From NCBI GenBank assembly GCA_000004985.1, contig GG738893.1: a DNA stretch of 64,000 nucleotides; one strand, given 5' to 3'. Source of the DNA: Naegleria gruberi. Taxonomy: Eukaryota. The translations under genes were made by a program, and so were the position numbers. Positions 32,190-52,961 of this stretch are shown here, piece by piece (positions within the stretch are counted from its first letter, which is position 1; each line of letters begins with the position of its first letter). The notes beneath the pieces are model-generated. The model made no database searches and was not told where the DNA came from. It was given only the letters and a program-made list of their open reading frames with translations.

Positions 32190-34622
32190 TTATTCAAAGA
32201 CAACATCTTTGGAGATGAGCTCAAACATTGGATCAACACATCTAAGGGTAACAGATTGGTTGGTGAGTAAAGAAACTGCTGGATAAAGAACGCCTGTGAT
32301 ATTTCTAAAGCATTCACCAATGCATTTACCATTCAGATACCAAGAGAGGGTTGCACCAATATTATTCTTTGGATCGACAGCATCTTCAAAAGCTTTCAAG
32401 TAGTACTTGACACGAGCCTTGACAATATCTCCCTCATTGAATGGAACGTTATTCCACTGTACGACAGGGTCACATGTGAAGGCTTGCTTATGTTTGAGAT
32501 GAGTATTGGAATAAAAGTGTAAATTATCACCATTTCCGCCTGCATATCCAAAACCTCCATGTCTATCATATCCTACAAGATTGGTTGGTGTGGATTCCTT
32601 GTAAGGGAAGGTTTCGGTTTCCAATCCAATTACAATCCACCAACCATTAGCGTTAGTCTTGTCGAATTTTTCAATCTTAATTTCCACTTCTAAAATTGCA
32701 ACATCATCAGTGATAATATCCACATCTCCATTTTCAAGATCCAATGGTGAAATGAGAGGAAGTGTCATGTATCCATTCTTTCTCTTTTCAATTTCTGTTG
32801 GAATTCTGATTGGAAGGTTAGTTCTCACAGTTTGCCAATGATATGTAATATTATCCTCTCTGTAGACAGTGGCATTGTTATTCTTGAACTTGATATTGTT
32901 ACCTCTTTCACATGTATCCCAACACAATTTCAAGGCCCAATTAATAAAGAATCTATAATAGGTCTTCCATGACTTGTAATAACATGGTGGTTTTTCACAA
33001 ACAGTCATGAATCGTTTTTTAATCTCGTTAAGAGGAGTCTGAGAAAAGAATCTTGGACACTTGTCTAATGATTTAGAATTAGTAACATTTTGATATTTTC
33101 TCTTGACATAGTAGCTGTATACGTTCATACAAATCTCTTTCCAAAGCATTTCATTCTTTGCGAATTCTCTTTCAAATTCTTTACAAACCAATCCAATACC
33201 CAAAGCTAATTCCTTGTGAGTTAGGAATGAGAAAATTTGATAGTACAATTCTGGAATTAGTCTGATAACTTGTTTCTTTGTTCTTGGAGGAGTGCTAGTG
33301 TAGTGAGATGGGGAAGCAAAATGTATTGGATTACCTGCAAATGGTAATGAATCAACCATAGTAGTAACTTGATAAGAATGTGGTCTATGTACAGAAACAA
33401 TTTGGGAGCGAGGTGTTCTAATGATTGGAGAAGAAGTGTTGGAAAATTTGTTATTGTTACTCTTTTTGGTTGGAGTGAGAATAGTTTCAGTATTATTGCC
33501 AACTGGTTGTACAGATTCATTGGCCAATTCAATATTTGATCTCTCCAAAGATGCTAATGATGAAGCAACTGGTTGTTGTGGAGGACCAACGAGAATTTCT
33601 TCTGCATTCTTTTGAACTTTCTGATTGAGAATTGTTCTAGATGGAATTGCAGTGGCAGGAGGGGTATAGACTTGGTAGGCTCGTTGTTGAGAAGAATCAA
33701 TATTACTCAAAATAACTCTCTCAATGCTAATAGGTGGTCTGAATGGTTCGTTCGGTGGAACGAAGCAAAATGTATCATTATTGACAATTTGATCAATGCC
33801 ATCTACTTCTGTTCCTCTTAATGAAATTAATTTTGGCAAAATGTCAGAATTATCACTTCTTCCAATATCATTGAAAGGAGTGTATCTAAACTTGGAGCAA
33901 ACCATCATTATTAAATCTTCAAAAGAAGTACCAGTTGGATCGAAGGAAACAATCTTTCCATGTTGCAAACTACCATTAGGAAAGATGTGAATCCTCATCA
34001 TTGGTCTCGAGTACAAGGAAGGATAGTGGTTTTGTTCTATACTGGCATGTTCCATGAAACCATCTCTCTTTGCTGCATAAATTGGTTGTCCTGTGGTCAT
34101 ATTTGCAGCAACAGTGTGAGAGGATGACATGAATGGATGTTGCACATATTGATAGTGTTGATGATCATGATGAGATCTGTGATGTTGTTGAAGAAATTCA
34201 AAATCATCCTCATTTTGTTCATACATATCATATTGATCGGAGCATGATGGTTCTGCTAATTGTTGTTGTGATGAATAATTATTAAAGGAAAAGTTTTCAT
34301 ACAAATGTTGTGAAGATGAGTCGGAATATGTATGATCATCTTCCACAGAATTATTACTACTATTGTATCTGACAACGTTATCGAGTGAGGATTTTTTAAT
34401 CATATTGTTATTATTATTAATAGTTTCTTGAATGTCGGTATTGGAGTTGCTATTCGAATTACAACTCATACTTGATAGAGGCGGAGAGGATGAAAGGTTA
34501 GAATAGGAATTCACTTCTCCGAAATATGTATTAGAAATGGATTGAAATTGTTGTTGCTGTTGTCTGGTTAGATGATGAAGGGAGGAGAAATAGTGATTGT
34601 TAGCAGCAGCAGAATGAGACAT
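32190..34622 (-). CDS. F-box / SPRY (B30.2) domain protein (FBXO45/FSN-1-like architecture), 810 aa with N/Q-rich N-terminus
   Basis: F-box at ...VIRLIPELYYQIFSFLTHKELALGIGLVCKEFEREFAKNEMLWKEIC.... C-terminal SPRY features are ...NGWWIVIGLETETFPYKES...GYDRHGGFGYAGGNGDNLHFYSN.... Confidence 0.65.
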   Translation of the reverse strand: MSHSAAANNHYFSSLHHLTRQQQQQFQSISNTYFGEVNSYSNLSSSPPLSSMSCNSNSNSNTDIQETINNNNNMIKKSSLDNVVRYNSSNNSVEDDHTYSDSSSQHLYENFSFNNYSSQQQLAEPSCSDQYDMYEQNEDDFEFLQQHHRSHHDHQHYQYVQHPFMSSSHTVAANMTTGQPIYAAKRDGFMEHASIEQNHYPSLYSRPMMRIHIFPNGSLQHGKIVSFDPTGTSFEDLIMMVCSKFRYTPFNDIGRSDNSDILPKLISLRGTEVDGIDQIVNNDTFCFVPPNEPFRPPISIERVILSNIDSSQQRAYQVYTPPATAIPSRTILNQKVQKNAEEILVGPPQQPVASSLASLERSNIELANESVQPVGNNTETILTPTKKSNNNKFSNTSSPIIRTPRSQIVSVHRPHSYQVTTMVDSLPFAGNPIHFASPSHYTSTPPRTKKQVIRLIPELYYQIFSFLTHKELALGIGLVCKEFEREFAKNEMLWKEICMNVYSYYVKRKYQNVTNSKSLDKCPRFFSQTPLNEIKKRFMTVCEKPPCYYKSWKTYYRFFINWALKLCWDTCERGNNIKFKNNNATVYREDNITYHWQTVRTNLPIRIPTEIEKRKNGYMTLPLISPLDLENGDVDIITDDVAILEVEIKIEKFDKTNANGWWIVIGLETETFPYKESTPTNLVGYDRHGGFGYAGGNGDNLHFYSNTHLKHKQAFTCDPVVQWNNVPFNEGDIVKARVKYYLKAFEDAVDPKNNIGATLSWYLNGKCIGECFRNITGVLYPAVSLLTNQSVTLRCVDPMFELISKDVVFE

Positions 34623-35223: not shown

Positions 35224-36339
35224 TTATTTTCTTGGGAATGCAAACATGTATTGAGGAGGAACAGCGACTGGGTAATCCAAATCTTGAGCAGCTCTAATTG
35301 GCCAGTAAGGATCATTCAAATCTTGTCTTCCAATTAATACTAAATCTGCCTTTCCATCCTTCACTAAATCATTAGCAAATTTAGCTTCCACTATTTTACC
35401 AACTGCACCAGTGGCCAATCCATCAACTGATTTCTTGACGCCCTCAGAGAATGGAACTTGATAACCTTGCACAATTCCAATTGGTGAAATTTTGGCTTTG
35501 GCATTATTACCACCAGATGAACAGTCCAACAAGTCAACTCCAGAATCACGTAAAACCTTTGCTAGCTCTGTAGTGTCTTTCATGGTCCAGCCCTCTTCAC
35601 CAACGTATTCATCAGCTGAAACTCTGACAAATAATGGCATTTCAGTTGGAATATTCTCTCTAATTCTTTGAACAATTTCAATCAAGAATCTAATACGATT
35701 TTCGAATGATCCACCATAAGCATCAGTTCTTTGATTTGAAGTTGGTGAAAGGAATGAGGAAATTAAATATCCGTGAGCTCCATGAATTTCAATAACATCA
35801 AATCCTGCCTTAACAGCTCTCTTAGCAGCATCCACAAATTGTTGAATCACTTCTTGAATTTGTTCAATGGACAATTCTGCAGGAACTTTGTGATTATCAT
35901 CAAATGCAATTGGAGATGGACCAACAACGTCCCATCCTCCTTCTTCATTTGTCAATGCTTTTCTTCCTAGAGCTTCCCACAATCTTCCAGTTGATGCCTT
36001 TCTACCAGCATGACCTATTTGTATTCCGATATGTCCACCCTGTTCGTGTGTAAATTGACAAATTTTAGACAACATGTCAACATGTTCATCTTTGTAAATT
36101 CCTAAACATCCTGGTGAAATTCTACCAATATCCGAAACACCAGTGGCTTCTACAATAAATAAACCAGCTCCACCTACAATTCTACTGCCAATATGTTGAA
36201 CATGCCAGAAATTAGCAAATCCATCAACCGATGAGTACTGACACATTGGGGAGACTACAATACGATTCTTTAAAGTCAATCCTCTAATTTTGAATGGTTG
36301 AAAGAGTGGAGGAACAGATGAGATATCTTGTGCTGACAT
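35224..36339 (-). CDS. NADH:flavin oxidoreductase, Old Yellow Enzyme family (YqjM/NamA-like), 371 aa
   Basis: Full-length collinear match to OYE: ...LFQPFKIRGLTLKNRIVVSPMCQYS...HIGSRIVGGAGLFIVEATGV...GIQIGHAGRKAS...VIEIHGAHGYLISSFLSPTSNQRTDAYGGSFENR.... Confidence 0.85.
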   Translation of the reverse strand: MSAQDISSVPPLFQPFKIRGLTLKNRIVVSPMCQYSSVDGFANFWHVQHIGSRIVGGAGLFIVEATGVSDIGRISPGCLGIYKDEHVDMLSKICQFTHEQGGHIGIQIGHAGRKASTGRLWEALGRKALTNEEGGWDVVGPSPIAFDDNHKVPAELSIEQIQEVIQQFVDAAKRAVKAGFDVIEIHGAHGYLISSFLSPTSNQRTDAYGGSFENRIRFLIEIVQRIRENIPTEMPLFVRVSADEYVGEEGWTMKDTTELAKVLRDSGVDLLDCSSGGNNAKAKISPIGIVQGYQVPFSEGVKKSVDGLATGAVGKIVEAKFANDLVKDGKADLVLIGRQDLNDPYWPIRAAQDLDYPVAVPPQYMFAFPRK

Positions 36340-37834: not shown

Positions 37835-39930
37835 ATGAAGAGAATCATTCCATCATTTAAGAAGGGATTGGAGAAATCTTTTCAATGTGAGCAGTATCGA
37901 TCATTCCGATTGCAAAATTGTAAATTAAAACCAATAACAACGATAAATTCATTGATGAGGAATGGAAATTACAATTCAATGATGAAGGCTAAATATTTCG
38001 GAAGAAGAAATTTTGGAACTGATTCTTCTTCAAGAAGGTTATTGTCTTGGAATAGTTTTAAATTGTGGAGTGCTTGGATATTGCTAGGATTTGGTGTTTT
38101 TGTTGGTGTTGATTCGATTTATAGTACATACAAGGTTCAATTTGATAGATTGATGAGGTTTTTTACTTCGGAAGAGATTTTACCTGATGAGAGTTGGGAT
38201 TCTTCATGTTTTGTTGATAAAAAGACTTTGGAAATGCTCAAATACTTGTTTAACAAGTATTCACATGGAAAGGATGTCATGTCTATTGAAGAGTTGAGAG
38301 AATTCTTCAGTCAAGAGCAACAGGATGAATTGCCCAATAATATTAATCGAGATTCCATTGATTTTCAACAATTTATATCAATTTTACTGACCACTTCATT
38401 CATGAAACTGGAAGAGTTTGAAGATGACTTACCGTTGTCAGATTATTTAATTTCCTCCTCTCACAATACCTATCTGGAGGGAAATCAGCTTACTAGTGAA
38501 AGTTCTAAAAAGGCCTATATTGATTGCCTTAAAGCTAATTGTAGATGTATCGAAAGTAAGTAATATTCATCAATGGAAATAATTTAACTGATCATGTGCG
38601 AATAGTTGATTGTTGGGATGGTCCTAATGGAGAACCAATAGTCTATCATGGTTGGACTCTCACCTCAAAGATTACACTCAAGGAAGCACTTGAAGGAATC
38701 AAACAATATTCATTCCACACAACTGACTATCCTCTCATCATCTCATTGGAAATTCATTGTAATTTTGATCAACAGAAAAAAATTGCACAACATTTGAAAG
38801 ATGCATTTGGTGAGAAGATTATTGCTCCATCAGAATTGAGTAATACTGAGCAACTTCCAAAACTTTCTGAATGTAGAGGAAAGGTCTTACTTCAGGGAGA
38901 GTTGGCAAAGTTGGAAAACAAATTGAGACAAGTTGAGGTGGATATTGTTTCTGATATATTTTTCGAAAAGAATATTTCACACAATGAATTTGATCCTCCA
39001 GAACTTGTATGGGCCAGAAATGTCATTCCAAACATTAATATAGATGAAAAGTTTGTTGTGGAAAAGATGGACGAATCAATGAAGACTCTCGACACAACAT
39101 TTCCAACCATGCAACCTGATAAGGACAAAATAGGACAGTGGACTAAGGAGCTGTATGACCTCTTATTTTTTAAATCTGTGGTCGATGTACATCATGAATA
39201 TCCAGAGGAAACTTCTCAAATTCACAAAATGATTAATCTCTCAGAAGGAATGGGACTGACTCATATTATCAAGAAGGGTTCCCATTTTTTCAAACACAAT
39301 GAAACTCTAATGACTAGAATTTATCCAAAAGCTACAAGAGTATTCTCCACTAACTTTAGTCCAGTAATGTATTGGGCTGCAGGTTGTCAGATTGTATCTC
39401 TCAATTATCAATTTTGTGATCAATTTTTGAGAATTAATAATGCTCTCTTCTCATCCAATCCAAGTGGATACGTACCAAAAGCCAAGCTAGACGAAACAAC
39501 ACCATTCAAAAATGTTAAAATTGAAGTAATTGATTTCATTCCAGCCAAGTCAACTCTTCAAAAGGTCAACCAACTTTCCATTGGAGTTATTGAAACAGGT
39601 TCTTTATCTGTTTCGAATAAGAAAATATACTCGAACCTTGTCAAGGTATTGAAAGATTCATTGAATGGGGAGACAGCACTCACTTCCAAGCAAACTATTA
39701 ATGCACCACTGGATGATAAGAAATCTATCATTTCATTTGGACTTTTTAAAAAGAAGAATCCTCTTATTAGACCATTCTCTACATTGTTTAGATTGGGTAA
39801 TTTTGAATGTGTTGGATATTCATCTCTACTCACTCATCAACTTTTGCCAGGATTCAGATTCCTTCCTATGAGAAATTATGAAGGTCAAATCGTTGGTGGA
39901 TTTCTTGTACACATTACAAAGCAATCATGA
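37835..39930 (+). CDS. Phosphoinositide-specific phospholipase C-like protein (X and Y catalytic boxes) with N-terminal TM segment; join(37835..38555,38606..39930)
   Basis: X box spans a 50-nt intron (38556..38605, GTAAGT...AATAG): ...[36 protein letters not shown]|[37 protein letters not shown]...[16 protein letters not shown].... Y box reads ...[46 protein letters not shown]...GYVPK. The N-terminus has a hydrophobic span ([16 protein letters not shown]) and EF-hand-like acidic helices. Confidence 0.7.
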
Positions 39931-40515
39931 ATTTCATAGATTTGAGAGTATTTACTAACCGATCTACAAGTTTTAACCATCATAATGGAAGAGATAACAC
40001 ACAATTGGGAATGTTATTTCATAATTATTTTATGAAAATTATTCGAAAGTAAAGGAAATGAATTCATTTTCCCTTATCATCCATTTAAGGATTTTGGGAG
40101 TCGTCATGAGGATTCGAAAATGAAAATCACCATGATTTGGCTGTCATACGAAAGGATGGATTCTATCCACTTGTCACTAATCATTTTTAAAAAAAATGTC
40201 GACACTATCAACCGAGTCTTTTTACACAACTCTTGAACAAAAATTCTCTACAGTCTTTTTCTTTCTGAATGGGGTTGTTGCTAACTCATCCAATCCATTC
40301 CGAATTTTGATTAATGATGAGGTAAATAATTGCTCTCTGAAAATTTATTTTACCATTTATCCGAAAGTGTGTTTTAAAGCTTGAATCCAACTGTAATAGT
40401 GTTGTCTATGCAACACAAGTCGAAGAACCAAGAGTTGGTGGCCATCACTTTATTAGAGTGAAAGCTGATTGGTAAGTTTCTCAAAGTTTAGTTTTCTTTA
40501 AACCAAAGAAGTCCA

Positions 40516-42775
40516 TTGTTGAGATCAGGATCAGGTTTATCGAGCCAATACGAAAGATATAATTTGAGTATTAATGGATTCTTTATTTTGATTGATTGTA
40601 CTGAAGAAATTGGAGGTTCAGATACTGGAATTCGTATCATTCAACAAAAACATGACAATTTTGGACCAAATTATAAGAATTACAAGTTTGGAAATAAGGA
40701 GACTGAGAATGCAATTTTAAAAGGTTTATCATCTACCAGAAATTTAATCAAATCCAATTTACCACCTAAACAACTTGAAGAACAATTGAAAAAACTTGAA
40801 CAATTGTTTAGAAAGGACATTTTGACAAGAGAAGAATTTGAATCTAAATGGAAAATGGTTTACAATCCAGCAAATAGTGGATCAGAAATGACCTATGCCA
40901 CCACTTCTAATAATCAACAAACTAATACACAGAGTAGTGGCAATATGGATGGCCTCACACAAGATCAATTAGATTTACTTTCCAAGTTGAGAGGGTAAGT
41001 ATTGTGAAATTCACTTTCTAAATTGTAACATTTGTAATAGATTGATTGGAAGAGGCATTATCACACAGGAAGAGTACAATGCCAAGCTCAATAAGCTGAA
41101 AGAAGAAAATCAAAAATCCTCCCCTCCAAAACAACCATCTCTTACTCCAGAACAGAAGCAAATGATTGAAAAATTGGAAAGCCTTTTATCAAAGGGAATT
41201 CTCACACAGGAAGAATTCGAAATGAAAAAGAAACAAATTGTTGGAAATAATTCTCAAATCAGCAGCTCTACATCTGGTCAGAAATCTCCAACTGCAGTAG
41301 AAACAATTTCATTTGAAAAGTATGCACAACAATATGAAGATTTAAAGTGCATGATGAATGAATCTCAAAAACACCAAATGAGAACTCTTGAAAGATTTGT
41401 CAACGATGGAATAATTACACAAGACGAATATGAAATGAAAAAGAAAAAAGTTTTGGGAAATCTTTACACTCCAACAAATTGGATTTATCAAAAGCAACTT
41501 TCTGAAAGAGAACAAACCAGTAGCTCTCCATCTTCTCCTTCTACTCCTTCCTCTACAGAATCTCTATCCGAAAGTCAAAAAGAAAGAATTGAAAAATTGA
41601 AAATATCAAAGGAGAAGGGAATTTTAACCAATGAAATGTTCGAATCGAGAATGCAACAAATTTTGGATGAAAACAAGCCAGTTCAAGACACTGAAGATTA
41701 TTCACATCTCACCTCTGATCAACAAAATTATATTGCCAAACTGAAATATTTCAAAAAGATGGGAATTCTTACACCATCCGAATTTGACATTCAAATGGAA
41801 AAAATCATTTCAGACCCTGATAGTGTCAAGACCGGTGCTCTAGTTTCTTCACCTCAAACACCTACAAGTAGTTCATCAAATTCCTCTCCAAAAACCCCAA
41901 CAGACTCCAAGCCATCCACTCCAACCATTATTTCTAACAAGTCAAGTAAGCCATCTACTCCTACTCCTGTCTTTACTTCAGAAGAAGTGGAAACTCCAGT
42001 CACTCCAACTGATAGCTCTCAAAAGAATCAACAAACCAATACAGTTCCAAAATTGGAAGAAAAGAAGCCAACCACACCAGTACCTATCGTTGAAACCAAG
42101 AAAAAACCATCTTCAGAAAAGATTGTTAAGGAAAGTCCAAAAGAAACAACTCCTAAACAATCATCAACACCAATCAGTAGTGGTGCAGAGCAAGATGAAG
42201 AAATTCAAGATCAACTGGAAAGACTCAGATCACTTGTCGATATGGGAATCATCTCAGAGGAAGATTACAAACAAAAGGAAGAAAAGCTCTTGAAGGGAAC
42301 ACCAACCCCTGCATCTCCAGCTGCTACACCAGAAGAATCCAAACCTGTAGTCAATCAACAAGCAACCAATAATCAAGTCAAACAATTGGAAAAGCTCTAC
42401 AATTCTGGAATTATTTCAAAGGAAGATTTTGAGCAAAAAGTCAACAAAATTCTTGGAAAACCTCAAAATGAGACAACCACCACAAAGGTTGAAAGTCCAT
42501 CCTCTCCAAGAAACACCTCAAATGTCAAAGATCAAAATGTTAAAGTAGAATTGGCCAAATTGAAGAAACTTTTGGAGAATGGAATCATTGCACAAGAACA
42601 ATTCGAAATGAAACAATCTAAATTATTGGGCACTTCTCCATCAAGTACCACCACTGAAACTGAATTATCATCAGAACAAGAGGAGCAAATTGCCAAATTG
42701 AAATCCTTCCTTGATGAGGGTCTCATAGATCAGGACGATTATCAAGAAGAGTTGAATAAAATCTTGAATAAATAA
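40516..42775 (+). CDS. Protein with 10 tandem SHOCT-like (~30-aa) repeats separated by S/T/P linkers; join(..40994,41041..42775); possible extra 5' exons at 40196..40320 and ~40368..40471
   Basis: Repeat units include IEKLESLLSKGILTQEEFEMKKKQIVG, LERFVNDGIITQDEYEMKKKKVLG, LERLRSLVDMGIISEEDYKQKEEKLL, LEKLYNSGIISKEDFEQKVNKILG, LKKLLENGIIAQEQFEMKQSKLLG and LKSFLDEGLIDQDDYQEELNKILNK*. A 46-nt intron (GTAAGT at 40995 ... TAATAG ending 41040) joins ORFs 40516..40998 and 41042..42775. Upstream ORF 40196..40384 can be spliced in frame through two ~47-nt GT..AG introns. That 5' structure is tentative. Confidence 0.5.
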
Positions 42776-42895: not shown

Positions 42896-44181
42896 TTGAA
42901 CTTTTTGTTCAAACCAAAAAAAATGGCTCCACATGCAACTTTATTCTCATCACTTCCCTATGAAATATTCCAACATATTTTATCGTTTGGAGCTGATAGC
43001 GAATTGAAAAATCCATCAAGTAGAAATTCAGATATCCGAATGGTTGCCAAATTTCAATCAATTAATAAGAAAATTTCGAATATGAAGGAAATGCAAGATT
43101 ATTTCAATGCCTTTTGGTGGAAAGTATTCGAAAAGAATTTTGGAATTGGTCAATTATTTGGAAATGATTTGGAGAAACTTCGATTACGAATGATTAAACG
43201 AGACGAAATGAAGAGGAAAATTTTATTAGCAAGTTATATCAAATTTAAACTTTACAAACGACCAAAATATGATCCTAATGCACAACAACAACAAGAGGAA
43301 GTTAAAATAATAGTGCTTGGGGAAGGAGGAGTGGGTGAGTAATAATAATTCTATTATTCGATTCTAATAGAATTTTATTATGGACCTATTTATTTCACAT
43401 TTACCATAATTATGAAAATAAGGAAAATCTGCAATAACCATTTTCTTTATTCAGCATATTTTTATTACTGAATACGATCCGACAATTGAGGATACATACA
43501 GAAAGTATTTTAGGGTTGATGAAGAGCCAGCCATGGTAGAAATTCTCGATACTGCAGGTGAGTTTTTGTAATGTTTGGCAATAATTATGATTAACTAATT
43601 TTGATGATAACTATTAGGACCTGAGGAGTTTTCTAGTAAGTAAATTTAATTAGAAACTCGACTAATATTATGTTAGCATGGAGAGGTAAGAGATTTTATT
43701 TGGGATTGTAATATAATTCAATTAATAATACCTCTTAATAGATCAATATATGAGAGTTGGAGATGCATTTGTAATTGTATGTTCTTCAAGTGATGAAAAC
43801 TCTGTATCAGATATGCGTAGACACGTAGAGAACATGTTACGTTGCAAAGATGTTGAAGTTAATGATAGGCCTGTGGTGTTTGTTTTAAACAAGATGGATT
43901 TATTGGTTAGTGCCAATAGAAATGAAACAATTGATCGTTTTAGACAAGAAGTTAATTCAATTGTTTCAGATAATTCATTATTGAACTATTCCATTATTGA
44001 ATGTAGCGCCAAAAATGGAGAAAACATCGATGCCATATTTGAGGAAACTGTTAGAAAGCAAAGACTTGGTGGAATTGATAATCTTACTTTATTGAAAGGA
44101 TGCATTGAACAAGACATCTCATACATTGAGGAATGTAAAAAGAGGGTACAAGTCAAAAAGAAGAAATGCTCAATAATGTAA
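42896..44181 (+). CDS. Ras-family small GTPase (CAAX: CSIM) with ~140-aa N-terminal F-box-like extension; 5 exons join(42896..43334,43423..43557,43618..43635,43677..43685,43742..44181)
   Basis: Spliced core reads ...[11 protein letters not shown]|[45 protein letters not shown]|GPEEFS|TWR|[17 protein letters not shown]...[10 protein letters not shown]...[12 protein letters not shown]...KKKKCSIM*. It has G1, DTAG, NKMD, SAK and CAAX motifs. Introns are 88, 60, 41 and 56 nt with GTGAGT/GTAAGT donors, and there is a 9-nt micro-exon. The N-terminal extension contains [12 protein letters not shown] (F-box-like). Confidence 0.65.
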
Positions 44182-45931: not shown

Positions 45932-47317
45932 TTATGAAAAACTGGTTGGATTAAATGATCCTTTTCTTTCAAGGTAATTAGCTGCCTTATTCAAGTGAGA
46001 CATTATTTCAGAATGGCTATCCTTATCTTTGGCAAATGAGGGATTGTTCTTGAAGAGAGTTCCGTAGTAATATATTTGAATGGCATCAGCATATCGATGA
46101 ATAGATCCACAATCTTCTGCTGGGCAACAGTTTTCACCATCTTCAACTGTAATAGTTTGATCATTTGAATCCTCAATATTTTCAACTGTGATTTTGTGTC
46201 TGAATGAATCTCCCAAATCATACATGTAAAACATTTCATCTCCAGTCTAATTACATTGTAGTAAAAAGTAAAAAACACATACCTTTTCAAGTAAATGGAA
46301 TAGTTCAACCTTTGTATCATCTGCAGTGTAAATGTTGTGACTAAACTCGTGCATTTTGTCTACAGCTTGACTGTAAATTGGACCAAATACTAGGTCTGGT
46401 TGTGGCATTCTTTGATTTTTAGAGTCTTTCTTTTCGAATGGGATTTTTCTAAAATAGTAGGCATGATAGTTTCGGCACCATCCAAGAACAGGTGAAATAA
46501 CACGATCTTGCAAACTTTGTAGAGTAATAGAACCAGGTAATTTGACTCTTCTCCAAATGTGTGGTCTAAAGTTCAAAACTTGAATTCTCAACTGGTACAT
46601 TTTGCTTCTGAGATGAGTATTTGGTGAGGCAGTGACTTTCTCCACGAGTTCGTCTGCCTTCCTTTCCAGAACGTCCATTCCACCACTGAACATTAAATTT
46701 TGTCTTGCAAACATGAGCTGTTGAACCTGTTCAATACTCAATTCACTCTGATCTTCTCCTTCCACATAATCATCAACTGAACAGAAAATAGATTCCAAAC
46801 ATTTAGCAATTTGGTTGTGAATTTCACCTTTTTGTGCTTTGGAAATTTCTCCAATATCCAATGCAGATTTTAGTGTCTGCACAACAATTTCTCTAATATT
46901 CTTGATTAATTCTCTTTCCTGCTTATCATCAAACACCTTGTCGTGATCACCCAATTTTGCAAAACTAACAAAAGCTTCACCATACAAAACATATCCAGGA
47001 GCAAAACTTGGTTGATTAATAACACATTCTTGTCCACTATTCAGGGCTTTCAATATAGCCAACCTCTTTTCTTCCTTCTCCGAGAGTTGATCAGCCCTTA
47101 TCAATGAAGCCTTGCATCTAGCTTCAAGCAGGAAGGCAAGGTCATCCTTGCTGATGGCAGAATACTTTTCTACATTGCTGTTGGAAAATACCTCATCTAA
47201 CAAAGCTAGCAGGGAATCAACTTGTTCTGGTTTATCCAGTAGAGAAAGTACCTCCTTCTTCTTTTCCAATACATCGGATGAACTTTGTGGTTTGATCGTA
47301 ACTTTGTATTTGGACAT
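45932..47317 (-). CDS. PRiA4_ORF3-like (IWRR-motif) domain protein; 2 exons complement(join(45932..~46246,~46282..47317))
   Basis: ATG at 47317. Core reads ...MYQLRIQVLNFRPHIWRRVKLPGSITLQSLQDRVISPVLGWCRNYHAYYFRK...ELFHLLEK|TGDEMFYMYDLGDSFRHKITVENIED.... This matches the pRiA4b ORF-3-like domain (YxLRV.L.d..P.IWRR..VP...TL..LH..iq.amGW...HLh.F ... YDFGD.W.H.I.lE). A 35-nt GTATGT..AATTAG intron joins the two ORF-track frames. Confidence 0.55.
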
Positions 47318-48219: not shown

Positions 48220-49367
48220 NNNNNNNNNNNNNNNNNNNNNNNNNNNNNNNNNNNNNNNNNNNNNNNNNNNNNNNNNNNNNNNNNNNNNNNNNNNNNNNNN
48301 NNNNNNNNNNNNNNNNNNNNNNNNNNNNNNNNNNNNNNNNNNNNNNNNNNNNNNNNNNNNNNNNNNNNNNNNNNNNNNNNNNNNNNNNNNNNNNNNNNNN
48401 NNNNNNNNNNNNNNNNNNNNNNNNNNNNNNNNNNNNNNNNNNNNNNNNNNNNNNNNNNNNNNNNNNNNNNNNNNNNNNNNNNNNNNNNNNNNNNNNNNNN
48501 NNNNNNNNNNNNNNNNNNNNNNNNNNNNNNNNNNNNNNNNNNNNNNNNNNNNNNNNNNNNNNNNNNNNNNNNNNNNNNNNNNNNNNNNNNNNNNNNNNNN
48601 NNNNNNNNNNNNNNNNNNNNNNNNNNNNNNNNNNNNNNNNNNNNNNNNNNNNNNNNNNNNNNNNNNNNNNNNNNNNNNNNNNNNNNNNNNNNNNNNNNNN
48701 NNNNNNNNNNNNNNNNNNNNNNNNNNNNNNNNNNNNNNNNNNNNNNNNNNNNNNNNNNNNNNNNNNNNNNNNNNNNNNNNNNNNNNNNNNNNNNNNNNNN
48801 NNNNNNNNNNNNNNNNNNNNNNNNNNNNNNNNNNNNNNNNNNNNNNNNNNNNNNNNNNNNNNNNNNNNNNNNNNNNNNNNNNNNNNNNNNNNNNNNNNNN
48901 NNNNNNNNNNNNNNNNNNNNNNNNNNNNNNNNNNNNNNNNNNNNNNNNNNNNNNNNNNNNNNNNNNNNNNNNNNNNNNNNNNNNNNNNNNNNNNNNNNNN
49001 NNNNNNNNNNNNNNNNNNNNNNNNNNNNNNNNNNNNNNNNNNNNNNNNNNNNNNNNNNNNNNNNNNNNNNNNNNNNNNNNNNNNNNNNNNNNNNNNNNNN
49101 NNNNNNNNNNNNNNNNNNNNNNNNNNNNNNNNNNNNNNNNNNNNNACTAAGAAAACAAACACTTCTGATTTGAATTCAAATGTTTTAGGAACAAAATCAA
49201 ATCATTTCAAAGTTAAACTCATATCTAATTGTAATAGTTTAATGATTGGATTTGCACCTAAAAGTATTAATGTGAACGAAACAAATAATAATACAAAATG
49301 TGGATATTATTTATATACTACTACTGGAACCATTTATTCTCAGAATGGAGAATCAAACAAAAGCTAA
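47973..49367 (+). CDS. Coiled-coil / SPRY(B30.2)-like protein gene interrupted by assembly gap (5' part 47973..48219, 3' part 49146..49367)
   Basis: 5' part: MTKKKTGIMTNNAPPSSSQIKQQVQDTKNQTSLLKKQLDSIVQQYEQQLANLEKLETALNEKDEQVKSREIQVAQREQSVKD (coiled coil) runs into the N-run. After the gap an open frame gives ...FKVKLISNCNSLMIGFAPKSINVNETNNNTKCGYYLYTTTGTIYSQNGESNKS* (SPRY-like). Whether both parts belong to one gene is an inference. Confidence 0.35.
   Translation: MTKKKTGIMTNNAPPSSSQIKQQVQDTKNQTSLLKKQLDSIVQQYEQQLANLEKLETALNEKDEQVKSREIQVAQREQSVKDXXXXXXXXXXXXXXXXXXXXXXXXXXXXXXXXXXXXXXXXXXXXXXXXXXXXXXXXXXXXXXXXXXXXXXXXXXXXXXXXXXXXXXXXXXXXXXXXXXXXXXXXXXXXXXXXXXXXXXXXXXXXXXXXXXXXXXXXXXXXXXXXXXXXXXXXXXXXXXXXXXXXXXXXXXXXXXXXXXXXXXXXXXXXXXXXXXXXXXXXXXXXXXXXXXXXXXXXXXXXXXXXXXXXXXXXXXXXXXXXXXXXXXXXXXXXXXXXXXXXXXXXXXXXXXXXXXXXXXXXXXXXXXXXXXXXXXXXXXXXXXXXXXXXXTKKTNTSDLNSNVLGTKSNHFKVKLISNCNSLMIGFAPKSINVNETNNNTKCGYYLYTTTGTIYSQNGESNKS
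48220..49145. other. Assembly gap (926 N)
   Basis: Run of n. Confidence 1.
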
Positions 49368-51419: not shown

Positions 51420-51469
51420 NNNNNNNNNNNNNNNNNNNNNNNNNNNNNNNNNNNNNNNNNNNNNNNNNN
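51420..51469. other. Assembly gap (50 N)
   Basis: Run of n. Confidence 1.
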
Positions 51470-52723: not shown

Positions 52724-52961
52724 NNNNNNNNNNNNNNNNNNNNNNNNNNNNNNNNNNNNNNNNNNNNNNNNNNNNNNNNNNNNNNNNNNNNNNNNNNNNN
52801 NNNNNNNNNNNNNNNNNNNNNNNNNNNNNNNNNNNNNNNNNNNNNNNNNNNNNNNNNNNNNNNNNNNNNNNNNNNNNNNNNNNNNNNNNNNNNNNNNNNN
52901 NNNNNNNNNNNNNNNNNNNNNNNNNNNNNNNNNNNNNNNNNNNNNNNNNNNNNNNNNNNNN
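52724..52961. other. Assembly gap (238 N)
   Basis: Run of n. Confidence 1.

What the first reader, a model, noticed from the sequence alone, without database searches (positions are those of the whole stretch)
40516..42775. Eukaryotic protein built from ten SHOCT-like repeats
The ~30-aa unit ([LI]xKLxxLxxxGI[IL]TxEE[FY]ExKKxK[IL]) recurs 10 times. Each copy is separated by Ser/Thr/Pro linkers. The unit matches the SHOCT (short C-terminal) domain (PF09851 as I recall) found as single C-terminal copies on bacterial and archaeal membrane and stress proteins. A long tandem array of it in a eukaryotic, intron-containing gene is unusual; it could reflect an old transfer that was later expanded, or convergence. 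The N-terminal part (40196..40994) may add a separate small domain.
Basis: partly seen in the sequence, partly recalled or inferred. Interest (0 to 1): 0.6.

Follow-up and report, generated by a model that had tools for sequence, protein, structure and literature searches.

The report
Known Naegleria ten-repeat SHOCT protein
This is the Naegleria gruberi gene for a protein already published in 2013 as a multi-SHOCT-repeat protein, so the repeat array is real but not new; the checks here correct its gene model and show it also carries a small uncatalogued beta-sandwich domain.

Summary
A four-exon gene on the + strand (40196-42775, 815 aa) encodes ten roughly 36-aa helix-turn-helix units separated by Ser/Thr/Pro-rich linkers. 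It matches Pfam SHOCT (PF09851) at E=1.1e-47, and shuffled or reversed controls give no SHOCT hit.

The organism is not a dictyostelid. Apart from gene-model differences, the product is identical to Naegleria gruberi NAEGRDRAFT_59074 (XP_002673032.1, UniProt D2VS68). Eberhardt et al. 2013, the paper that defined SHOCT, singled out this protein as having eight SHOCT repeats. The finding is therefore already known.

New here:
- There are ten units, not eight. Two are too divergent for Pfam but are significant against a profile of the other eight.
- The deposited model lacks the first 76 aa and four residues at intron 3.
- Those N-terminal residues complete a confidently predicted beta-sandwich (pLDDT 88) with no Pfam match and no close PDB relative. 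It defines a small family (about 40 representatives among 1.8 billion) that mostly co-occurs with SHOCT; its named members are all heterolobosean.
- N. lovaniensis and Willaertia magna orthologues also carry ten units, mostly in the same order, so the array is old.

Function is untested. The most likely reading is a cytosolic, beads-on-a-string, multivalent binding scaffold.

The parts
40196..42775 (+). Whole gene (start codon to stop codon): Naegleria gruberi NAEGRDRAFT_59074 / D2VS68, corrected model of 815 aa, 91.7 kDa, pI 5.6
   Evidence: Spliced translation. It is 100% identical to P0007 = XP_002673032.1 over all shared residues. The start 'MSTLSTESFY' matches the orthologue starts 'MSSTYSTESFY' and 'MSSYSTESFY'.
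40196..40321 (+). Exon 1 (aa 1-42); absent from the deposited model apart from its last 5 nt
   Evidence: Homology to N. lovaniensis P0002 and W. magna P0003.
40322..40367 (+). Intron 1 (46 nt, GT..AG)
   Evidence: The acceptor at 40367 keeps 'CVLK', as in N. lovaniensis 'NDECVLK'.
40368..40471 (+). Exon 2; skipped in the deposited model
40472..40511 (+). Intron 2 (40 nt, GTAAGT..AG, phase 2)
   Evidence: The alternative acceptor at 40508, which the deposited model uses with a different donor, would give a TGA stop in this frame (read from the sequence).
40512..40994 (+). Exon 3
40995..41040 (+). Intron 3 (46 nt, GTAAGT..AG), inside SHOCT unit 2
   Evidence: The acceptor at 41040 keeps 'LIGR', matching 'LRGLVERGIVTQ' in N. 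lovaniensis. The deposited model uses the AG at 41051-41052 and loses these four residues.
41041..42775 (+). Exon 4, including the stop codon at 42773-42775
40196..40686 (+). N-terminal beta-sandwich domain (aa 1 to about 135, spanning exons 1-3); not matched by any Pfam model
40762..40869 (+). SHOCT unit 1 (aa 161-196)
   Evidence: (E=4.5e-5).
40954..41110 (+). SHOCT unit 2 (aa 225-261), interrupted by intron 3
   Evidence: (E=5.7e-6).
41141..41251 (+). SHOCT unit 3 (aa 272-308)
   Evidence: (E=1.7e-9).
41312..41515 (+). Conserved four-helix module (aa 329-396) holding SHOCT unit 4 (aa 343-378, 41354-41461) plus one extra helix on each side
   Evidence: E=1.2e-7; helices 91-104, 107-121, 127-141 and 147-158 of the exon-4 model. 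The segment is strongly conserved in the three orthologues.
41564..41674 (+). SHOCT-like unit 5 (aa 413-449), divergent
   Evidence: No Pfam hit on its own. It scores 20.6 bits against an HMM of the other eight units, above 2000 shuffles, and is predicted as a helix-turn-helix.
41708..41818 (+). SHOCT-like unit 6 (aa 461-497), divergent
   Evidence: No Pfam hit on its own. It scores 22.3 bits against an HMM of the other eight units and is predicted as a helix-turn-helix.
41819..42190 (+). Long linker (aa 498-621, 52% Ser/Thr/Pro), predicted disordered
   Evidence: Composition. pLDDT is below 50 over residues 264-382 of the exon-4 model.
42191..42298 (+). SHOCT unit 7 (aa 622-657)
   Evidence: (E=2.6e-8).
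42359..42463 (+). SHOCT unit 8 (aa 678-712)
   Evidence: (E=3.9e-8).
42530..42634 (+). SHOCT unit 9 (aa 735-769)
   Evidence: (E=7.9e-7).
42665..42772 (+). SHOCT unit 10 (aa 780-815), at the exact C-terminus
   Evidence: (E=1.4e-6).

Best explanation
Shown. This is the Naegleria gruberi nuclear gene NAEGRDRAFT_59074 (UniProt D2VS68), the multi-SHOCT protein already described by Eberhardt et al. 2013. With the gene model corrected, it encodes a 92-kDa soluble protein with no signal peptide and no transmembrane segment. The protein consists of an N-terminal beta-sandwich of about 135 aa followed by ten SHOCT helix-turn-helix hairpins. The hairpins are strung on predicted-disordered Ser/Thr/Pro-rich linkers of 10-124 aa, and the last one sits at the exact C-terminus. 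The ten-unit array is ancient and each unit is individually conserved: all ten N. gruberi units pair best with the same-numbered unit of N. lovaniensis, and seven of ten do so with Willaertia magna.

Inferred. A 28-aa amphipathic hairpin is too small to have a stable core of its own, so each SHOCT unit most likely works as a docking module. It would pack its hydrophobic face against a partner: another SHOCT unit, another protein, or the cytoplasmic face of a membrane as Ravi et al. 2024 proposed for bacterial SHOCT-like domains. Ten non-identical, separately conserved units on flexible spacers would then make a multivalent cytosolic scaffold or tether, with the beta-sandwich supplying a further family-specific binding specificity. 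Confidence is about 0.95 or higher for the identity and architecture, and about 0.35 for the scaffold mechanism.
For: Identity:
- The cluster of P0001 contains XP_002673032.1 / EFC40288.1 / UniRef100_D2VS68.
- That protein is identical to the window product apart from the missing N-terminus and 'LIGR'.
- D2VS68 is named in PMC3581485 as having eight SHOCT repeats.

SHOCT membership:
-.

Architecture:
- AlphaFold2 of exon 4 gives a helix of about 15 residues, a 5-residue turn and a helix of about 13 residues at each unit, with pLDDT 80-95.
- All linkers between units have pLDDT below 50, and pTM is 0.20, meaning no fixed overall shape.
- The beta-sandwich has pLDDT 88.

Soluble and cytosolic:
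- The highest Kyte-Doolittle 19-residue mean is 1.02, and the N-terminus is hydrophilic.

Old array with unit-specific constraint:
- Ten units are present in each of three genera.
- The unit-by-unit score matrix is dominated by its diagonal.
- Units share only 65-80% DNA identity over 54 nt, at irregular spacing.

Link between the beta-sandwich and SHOCT:
- All but one (P0043, a zinc-finger protein I take to be a false positive) of the 40 family representatives carry the beta-domain, often in 2-4 copies; most of the longer ones also carry SHOCT units, and several short ones have none.
Against: No experiment bears on the function of this protein. The one direct test of SHOCT self-association, a single bacterial unit fused to rat CD4 domains 3 and 4, found no oligomerisation (PMC3581485). 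No solved structure contains a significant SHOCT match, so the hairpin is only predicted. The structure tool returns no coordinates or PAE, so contacts between units could not be examined. The units are near neutral overall (net charge -6 to +2), which does not favour simple electrostatic binding to membranes. Ser/Thr/Pro-rich linkers are also typical of secreted mucin-like proteins.
Confidence: 0.6

Rival explanations
1. The SHOCT resemblance is convergent or compositional. On this view the units are generic amphipathic or coiled-coil helices rich in Lys, Glu and Leu that happen to score against a short profile.
For: The profile is only 28 positions long. Two of the ten units fail it on their own. 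Weak overlapping hits to other short helical families (GvpG, XkdX, DUF1707, EAD11) show that the region is promiscuous.
Against: Eight units each match the profile, seven of them over nearly its full length (positions 1-3 to 27-28 of 28), at E=4.5e-5 to 1.7e-9. Shuffling residues within each unit, or reversing the protein, removes every SHOCT hit at E<=1. The predicted structure is a helix-turn-helix hairpin with a Gly at the turn, not a continuous coiled coil. The overlapping families are themselves SHOCT-like: DUF1707 is described by Pfam as a 'SHOCT-like domain', and the GvpG hits cover only the short C-terminal part of that profile (positions 30-63 of 67).
Confidence: 0.05
2. The SHOCT module, or a whole gene, entered an ancestor of the Heterolobosea from bacteria and was then amplified inside the gene.
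For: SHOCT is overwhelmingly bacterial (790 bacterial and 53 archaeal species against 19 eukaryotic species) and patchy among eukaryotes (PMC3581485). The units match a profile built mainly from bacterial sequences.
Against: Nothing in the locus looks recently transferred. It has three spliceosomal introns, its GC content (33-34%) matches the rest of the window, and its neighbours are eukaryotic genes (PI-PLC, Ras-like GTPase). Orthologues exist in three genera. The fused beta-sandwich has only eukaryote-like relatives. A 28-aa module carries too little signal for a phylogeny, so direction and timing cannot be tested with these tools.
Confidence: 0.3
3. It is a secreted or cell-surface mucin-like glycoprotein. 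The Ser/Thr/Pro linkers would be O-glycosylated stalks and the helical units would be displayed outside the cell.
For: Most linkers are 27-80% Ser/Thr/Pro, including one of 124 aa. A different 69-kDa Naegleria fowleri 'SHOCT domain-containing protein' (A0A6A5CCE5) is among the abundant proteins of extracellular vesicles and conditioned medium (PMC9312180 and PMC12089049).
Against: There is no signal peptide or hydrophobic segment anywhere: the highest KD19 value is 1.02, and the conserved N-terminus 'MSTLSTESFYTTLEQK' is hydrophilic. The N. fowleri lists are dominated by cytosolic proteins (actin, EF-1alpha, Hsp70, aldolase), so presence there does not indicate classical secretion. No relationship between A0A6A5CCE5 and this gene was established.
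Confidence: 0.07
4. The N-terminal exons belong to a separate upstream gene, and the SHOCT protein starts in exon 3 as in the deposited model.
For: The deposited RefSeq/JGI model (737 aa) starts 'MRSPLLRSG...' and omits exons 1-2.
Against: Both orthologues carry the same N-terminal domain joined to the SHOCT array, at 62% and 52% identity over aa 1-164. The predicted beta-sandwich needs strands from exons 1, 2 and 3, whereas the deposited start would leave a roughly 60-aa fragment of it. All three introns have GT..AG ends and keep the reading frame.
Confidence: 0.05

Closest known systems
Naegleria gruberi NAEGRDRAFT_59074 (XP_002673032.1 / EFC40288.1 / UniProt D2VS68), described in Eberhardt et al. 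2013, PLoS One 8:e57848
   Same: It is the same locus. The residues are identical over the whole shared length, and the protein was published as the eight-SHOCT-repeat protein of N. gruberi.
   Different: The deposited model is 737 aa. It lacks aa 1-76 (exons 1-2), which truncates the beta-sandwich, and it lacks 'LIGR' in unit 2 because it uses an acceptor 12 nt further downstream. The publication counts 8 units; 10 are found here.
Orthologues: N. lovaniensis C9374_005055 (XP_044548154.1, 1000 aa) and Willaertia magna ABK040_001632 (914 aa)
   Same: Both have the same N-terminal beta-sandwich, ten SHOCT units and a C-terminal unit ending the protein. Unit order is conserved: 10 of 10 units correspond in N. 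lovaniensis and 7 of 10 in W. magna.
   Different: The linkers differ greatly in length and sequence. W. magna has no counterpart of unit 9 and instead has two copies resembling unit 10.
Bacterial and archaeal SHOCT domain proteins (Pfam PF09851), typically with a single C-terminal copy on membrane or stress proteins such as band-7, PLD-nuclease N-terminal domain, bacterial PH and Toastrack proteins
   Same: The same 28-aa helix-turn-helix module scores above the Pfam threshold, and one copy lies at the extreme C-terminus.
   Different: This protein has ten copies, nine of them internal, on long disordered spacers. It is eukaryotic and its gene has introns. It is fused to a beta-sandwich that was not found outside eukaryote-like proteins. 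The units carry an extra conserved N-terminal 'L-[ST]-x-[ED]-Q' extension of helix 1.
Heterolobosean paralogues with 2-4 copies of the same beta-sandwich plus SHOCT units: N. fowleri FDP41_005133 (A0A6A5BLN9), W. magna KAL9642838.1 and KAL9642511.1, and unnamed environmental proteins P0004 and P0009-P0045
   Same: They use the same two building blocks, the uncatalogued beta-sandwich and SHOCT hairpins, joined by low-complexity linkers.
   Different: In the paralogues the beta-domains are tandem and usually near the C-terminus, with 1-10 SHOCT units. The window protein has a single N-terminal beta-domain.
Gas vesicle protein G (Pfam PF05120 GvpG)
   Same: The whole protein scores 47.9 bits against a 30.6-bit cut-off. 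The match is to the SHOCT-like helical segment of GvpG.
   Different: Only profile positions 30-63 of 67 are matched, and always under a stronger SHOCT hit. It is not a GvpG.

Membership tests
SHOCT (Pfam PF09851) | The score against the family profile exceeds the curated gathering threshold of 27 bits | tested here: met
   The whole protein scores 159 bits, E=1.1e-47. Six single units exceed 27 bits on their own, two reach 23.5 and 26.3 bits, and two give no hit.
SHOCT (Pfam PF09851) | The match is specific to the order of residues, not to composition or generic coiled coil | tested here: met
   Four within-unit shuffles and the reversed sequence give no SHOCT hit at E<=1. Units 5 and 6 score above all 2000 shuffles against the profile of the other units.
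SHOCT (Pfam PF09851) | Two short amphipathic helices joined by a tight turn, with the signature G-[ILV]-[ILV]-[ST]-x-[ED]-E-[FY] | tested here: met
   The signature is visible in the unit alignment, where Gly is nearly invariant. AlphaFold2 predicts helix, 5-residue turn, helix at each unit of exon 4, with pLDDT 80-95. This is a prediction only; no solved SHOCT structure was found.
SHOCT (Pfam PF09851) | A single copy at the C-terminus, the predominant architecture that gave the domain its name | tested here: not met
   Unit 10 ends the protein, but nine further copies are internal. This is not a strict membership criterion: the defining paper itself reports N-terminal and multi-copy cases, including this protein.
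SHOCT (Pfam PF09851) | A shared molecular function (oligomerisation, partner binding or membrane anchoring) | not testable with these tools
   The function of SHOCT is unknown. The only experiment reported no oligomerisation (PMC3581485), and membrane anchoring is a prediction (PMC11237479).
Any catalogued domain family for the N-terminal beta-sandwich | A significant sequence-profile match | tested here: not met
   The N-terminal region has no Pfam hit. Across 56 domain instances, no Pfam family is matched by more than one member at E<=1. NCBIfam gives nothing either.
GvpG (Pfam PF05120) | A match along the whole 67-position profile | tested here: not met
   Only positions 30-63 are matched, overlapping SHOCT units.
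Secreted mucin-like glycoproteins | An N-terminal signal peptide or a membrane anchor | tested here: not met
   The highest 19-residue Kyte-Doolittle mean is 1.02 and the N-terminus is hydrophilic. This is a simple hydropathy test, not a dedicated predictor.

The most novel reading that the evidence does not exclude
The uncatalogued beta-sandwich and the SHOCT hairpin may together form a protist-specific toolkit, so far seen in Heterolobosea and in unnamed environmental eukaryotes. It would build multivalent 'sticker-and-spacer' scaffolds, with the ten individually conserved SHOCT units of this protein each recruiting a distinct partner or tethering membranes or condensates. If so, Naegleria would be the first tractable system in which the function of the widespread but uncharacterised SHOCT domain could be worked out.
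Probability: 0.2. Interest if true: 0.5.

Novelty: already known. Interest (0 to 1): 0.25.

Why it matters
SHOCT is one of the commonest protein modules with no known function or solved structure, and it is absent from the usual model organisms. A soluble eukaryotic protein with ten separately conserved copies is a convenient handle for biochemistry, for example to test whether the units bind lipids, each other or specific partners. That opportunity has been in the literature since 2013.

The practical gains from this check are threefold:
- The public gene model for D2VS68 is truncated and should be corrected.
- The missing residues reveal a beta-sandwich domain family that Pfam does not yet hold and that travels with SHOCT.
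- The repeat number and order are stable across heterolobosean genera, which argues that the units are not interchangeable.

Tried and rejected
- Dictyostelid origin was rejected. The exact match is to N. gruberi and the orthologues are in Naegleria and Willaertia.
- A first gene model with the exon-2 acceptor at 40379 (811 aa) was replaced by the acceptor at 40367 (815 aa) after comparison with N. lovaniensis 'NDECVLK'.
- A regular-expression search for the units found nothing because the spacing was written wrongly. HMMs replaced it.
It was rerun with orthologue and exon-3 rows.
- A search of the PDB by sequence, with two units and with a 22-unit profile, found nothing significant.
- Two further homologue searches (N-terminal profile; conserved unit 4-6 region) added only two fragments and nothing, respectively. 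These calls also did not list the proteins the query rows came from, so 'none' means 'no further relatives'. No N. fowleri orthologue was found, and the link to the vesicle and secretome protein A0A6A5CCE5 remains unestablished.
- A literature search for the locus tag and accessions returned only the 2013 paper. A broad 'SHOCT' search returned mostly shOCT4 knock-down papers.
- A DNA-level repeat search found only 65-80% identity over 54 nt, so this is not a recent tandem duplication or an assembly artefact.
Full report
**1. What is in the sequence**

The two long + strand ORFs at 40516..40998 and 41042..42775 are separated by a 46-nt GTAAGT...AG intron. Two more short exons lie upstream. The model that keeps an open frame from the ATG at 40196 and agrees with homologues has four exons: 40196-40321, 40368-40471, 40512-40994 and 41041-42775. 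Its introns are 46, 40 and 46 nt. The product is 815 aa, 91.7 kDa, pI 5.6. The window has about 33% GC throughout, and the gene does not stand out.

**2. The repeat is real and is SHOCT**

- An HMM built from the units finds exactly ten copies, at aa 161-196, 225-261, 272-308, 343-378, 413-449, 461-497, 622-657, 678-712, 735-769 and 780-815. No copy occurs elsewhere in any frame of the window.
- Scanned separately, eight units hit SHOCT at E=4.5e-5 to 1.7e-9, most over nearly the full 28-position profile.
- Units 5 and 6 fail Pfam alone. They score 20.6 and 22.3 bits against an HMM of the other eight, above every one of 2000 composition-preserving shuffles (maximum 16.9).
- Shuffling residues inside each unit (four versions) or reversing the protein removes all SHOCT hits at E<=1.
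- The other Pfam hits (GvpG, SHOCT_2, DUF1707, XkdX) lie under the SHOCT hits and cover only short helical parts of those profiles.

**3. Whose gene it is, and what was already known**

- The best database match (98% identity) belongs to a cluster that contains XP_002673032.1 / EFC40288.1 / UniRef100_D2VS68, 'NAEGRDRAFT_59074 [Naegleria gruberi], SHOCT domain-containing protein'.
- That 737-aa protein is identical to the window product over every shared residue. It differs only in starting 'MRS' inside exon 3 and in lacking 'LIGR' at intron 3.
- The window is therefore N. gruberi, a heterolobosean, and not a dictyostelid. Runs of N at 48220-49145, 51420-51469 and 52724-52961 fit a draft scaffold.
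- The paper that defined SHOCT (Eberhardt et al. 2013, PMC3581485) has a section on N. gruberi. [quoted passage not shown] It also lists 19 eukaryotic species with the domain.
- The central claim of the finding is thus published. No other paper in the library mentions the locus.

**4. Corrections to the public model**

- N. lovaniensis (P0002, 1000 aa) and Willaertia magna (P0003, 914 aa) orthologues begin 'MSSTYSTESFY...' and 'MSSYSTESFY...'. They align with the window's exons 1-3 at 62% and 52% identity.
- Reading the sequence, the deposited model starts at the ATG at 40317, uses the same donor at 40322 but an acceptor at 40508, and so skips exon 2.
- At intron 3 the deposited model uses the AG at 41051-41052 instead of the one at 41039-41040. 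This removes 'LIGR' from unit 2, whereas the orthologues have 'LRGLVERGIVTQ' and 'LQSLVDKGIISE'.
- The corrected model restores a complete unit 2 and a complete N-terminal domain.

**5. The N-terminal domain**

- AlphaFold2 on the N. lovaniensis N-terminus, with a 56-sequence alignment of domain instances, gives an eight-strand all-beta model with mean pLDDT 88 and pTM 0.78.
- It has no Pfam or NCBIfam match. Across 56 instances, no Pfam family is hit by more than one member.
- An exhaustive HMMER profile search of 1.84 billion representative proteins finds 40 proteins.
- All but one of these (P0043, a zinc-finger protein I take to be a false positive) carry the domain, often in 2-4 tandem copies. 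Most of the longer ones also carry SHOCT units, several short ones have none, and one has a C2 domain.
- All members that carry a name are heterolobosean: W. magna KAL9642838.1 and KAL9642511.1, and N. fowleri XP_044560519.1. One unnamed member sits on a 57-kb contig next to dynamin and CFAP77 genes, that is, in a flagellated eukaryote.

**6. Architecture and age of the array**

- AlphaFold2 of the exon-4 product predicts a helix of about 15 residues, a five-residue turn and a helix of about 13 residues at each unit, with pLDDT 80-95. Every linker between units falls below pLDDT 50, and pTM is 0.20. This is beads on a string.
- Unit 4 is flanked by one extra helix on each side, forming a conserved four-helix module at aa 329-396.
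- Seven of the nine inter-unit linkers are 32-80% Ser/Thr/Pro; the short one before unit 6 is 27%. The longest is 124 aa.
- There is no hydrophobic segment (highest KD19 value 1.02), so a signal peptide or transmembrane helix is unlikely.
- At the DNA level the units share only 65-80% identity over 54 nt, at irregular spacing.
- All three orthologues have ten units.
- Each N. gruberi unit scores best against the same-numbered N. lovaniensis unit: 92-128 on the diagonal against 32-94 off it. Seven of ten do so against W. magna, which lacks a counterpart of unit 9 and has two copies resembling unit 10.
- The array therefore predates the split of these genera, and the units are individually constrained, not interchangeable.

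**7. How it most likely works**

- Shown: the protein is soluble and modular, with one beta-sandwich and ten distinct, conserved SHOCT hairpins on flexible spacers.
- Inferred: each hairpin is too small to be a self-sufficient domain and probably buries its hydrophobic face against a partner.
- The literature offers two ideas. Oligomerisation was tested once on a bacterial unit, with a negative result (PMC3581485). Anchoring of diverse domains to the inner face of the membrane is a prediction from bacterial gene contexts (PMC11237479).
- Ten different units on long linkers fit a multivalent scaffold or tether better than a simple oligomerisation tag. I put about 0.35 on that mechanism.
- The near-neutral charge of the units and the absence of any solved SHOCT structure are reasons for caution.

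**8. Rival readings**

- Convergence or composition is effectively excluded.
- An ancient bacterial origin of the module followed by amplification inside the gene is plausible from the domain's distribution. It cannot be tested on 28 residues. Nothing in the locus suggests a recent transfer: it has introns, host-like GC, eukaryotic neighbours and orthologues in three genera.
- A secreted mucin-like role is unlikely without a signal peptide. A different N. fowleri SHOCT protein (A0A6A5CCE5, 69 kDa) is abundant in vesicle and conditioned-medium proteomes, but so are actin and EF-1alpha, and I could not link it to this gene.

**9. Verdict**

The modest additions are:
- the unit count (10, not 8);
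- a corrected gene model;
- evidence that the array is ancient and ordered;
- an uncatalogued beta-sandwich domain that co-occurs with SHOCT in heterolobosean and related environmental proteins.

Interest is 0.25.

Noticed in passing
window 40196-40511 and 41041-41052: The public model of NAEGRDRAFT_59074 (XP_002673032.1, 737 aa) appears mis-annotated. It omits exons 1-2 (76 aa), which truncates a beta-sandwich domain. It also uses an intron-3 acceptor 12 nt too far downstream, deleting 'LIGR' from SHOCT unit 2.
   Followed up: yes
window 40196-40686; proteins P0004, P0009-P0045: The N-terminal beta-sandwich belongs to a small family (40 representatives among 1.84 billion proteins) with no Pfam model. 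It is often present in 2-4 tandem copies, mostly together with SHOCT units and once with a C2 domain. All named members are heterolobosean.
   Followed up: partly
window 41312-41515: SHOCT unit 4 sits inside a larger, strongly conserved four-helix module ('ISFEKYAQQYEDLK...LYTPTNW...'), with one extra predicted helix on each side. It is the best-conserved part of the protein outside the beta-sandwich.
   Followed up: partly
window 48220-49145, 51420-51469, 52724-52961: Runs of N (926, 50 and 238 bases) are assembly gaps. They explain the apparent GC dips in the composition profile.
   Followed up: yes
window 37835-39930 (+): The upstream neighbour is a phosphoinositide-specific phospholipase C. 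Its PI-PLC-X domain is split between two ORFs, presumably by a short intron near 38560-38600, and is followed by PI-PLC-Y.
   Followed up: partly
window 42896-44181 (+): The downstream neighbour looks like a Ras-family small GTPase with an N-terminal extension of about 130 aa that has no Pfam hit. The P-loop 'LGEGGVGE' ends one ORF, and the rest of the G domain resumes at 43750. The stretch '[12 protein letters not shown]' looks F-box-like to the eye but was not detected by Pfam.
   Followed up: partly
window 46247-47317 (-): This ORF of 356 aa has a C-terminal match to PRiA4_ORF3 (PF07929, E=8.9e-11), a family named after a bacterial plasmid protein. That is unusual in a eukaryotic genome.
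   Followed up: no
window 32190-34622 (-) and 35224-36339 (-): The first ORF is an F-box-like protein with a weak, below-threshold SPRY match (25.3 bits against a 26.3-bit cut-off). The second is an Old-Yellow-Enzyme-type NADH:flavin oxidoreductase (PF00724, E=6e-80). Both look like ordinary genes.
   Followed up: no
literature: PMC9312180, PMC12089049: A Naegleria fowleri 'SHOCT domain-containing protein' (A0A6A5CCE5, 69 kDa) is among the most abundant proteins in extracellular vesicles and conditioned medium of clinical isolates. Whether it is related to this gene or to the paralogues with two beta-domains could not be established.
   Followed up: partly
tool behaviour: The profile-based homologue searches did not list the proteins from which the query rows were taken. 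Their short or empty hit lists therefore mean 'no additional relatives', not 'no relatives'.
   Followed up: no
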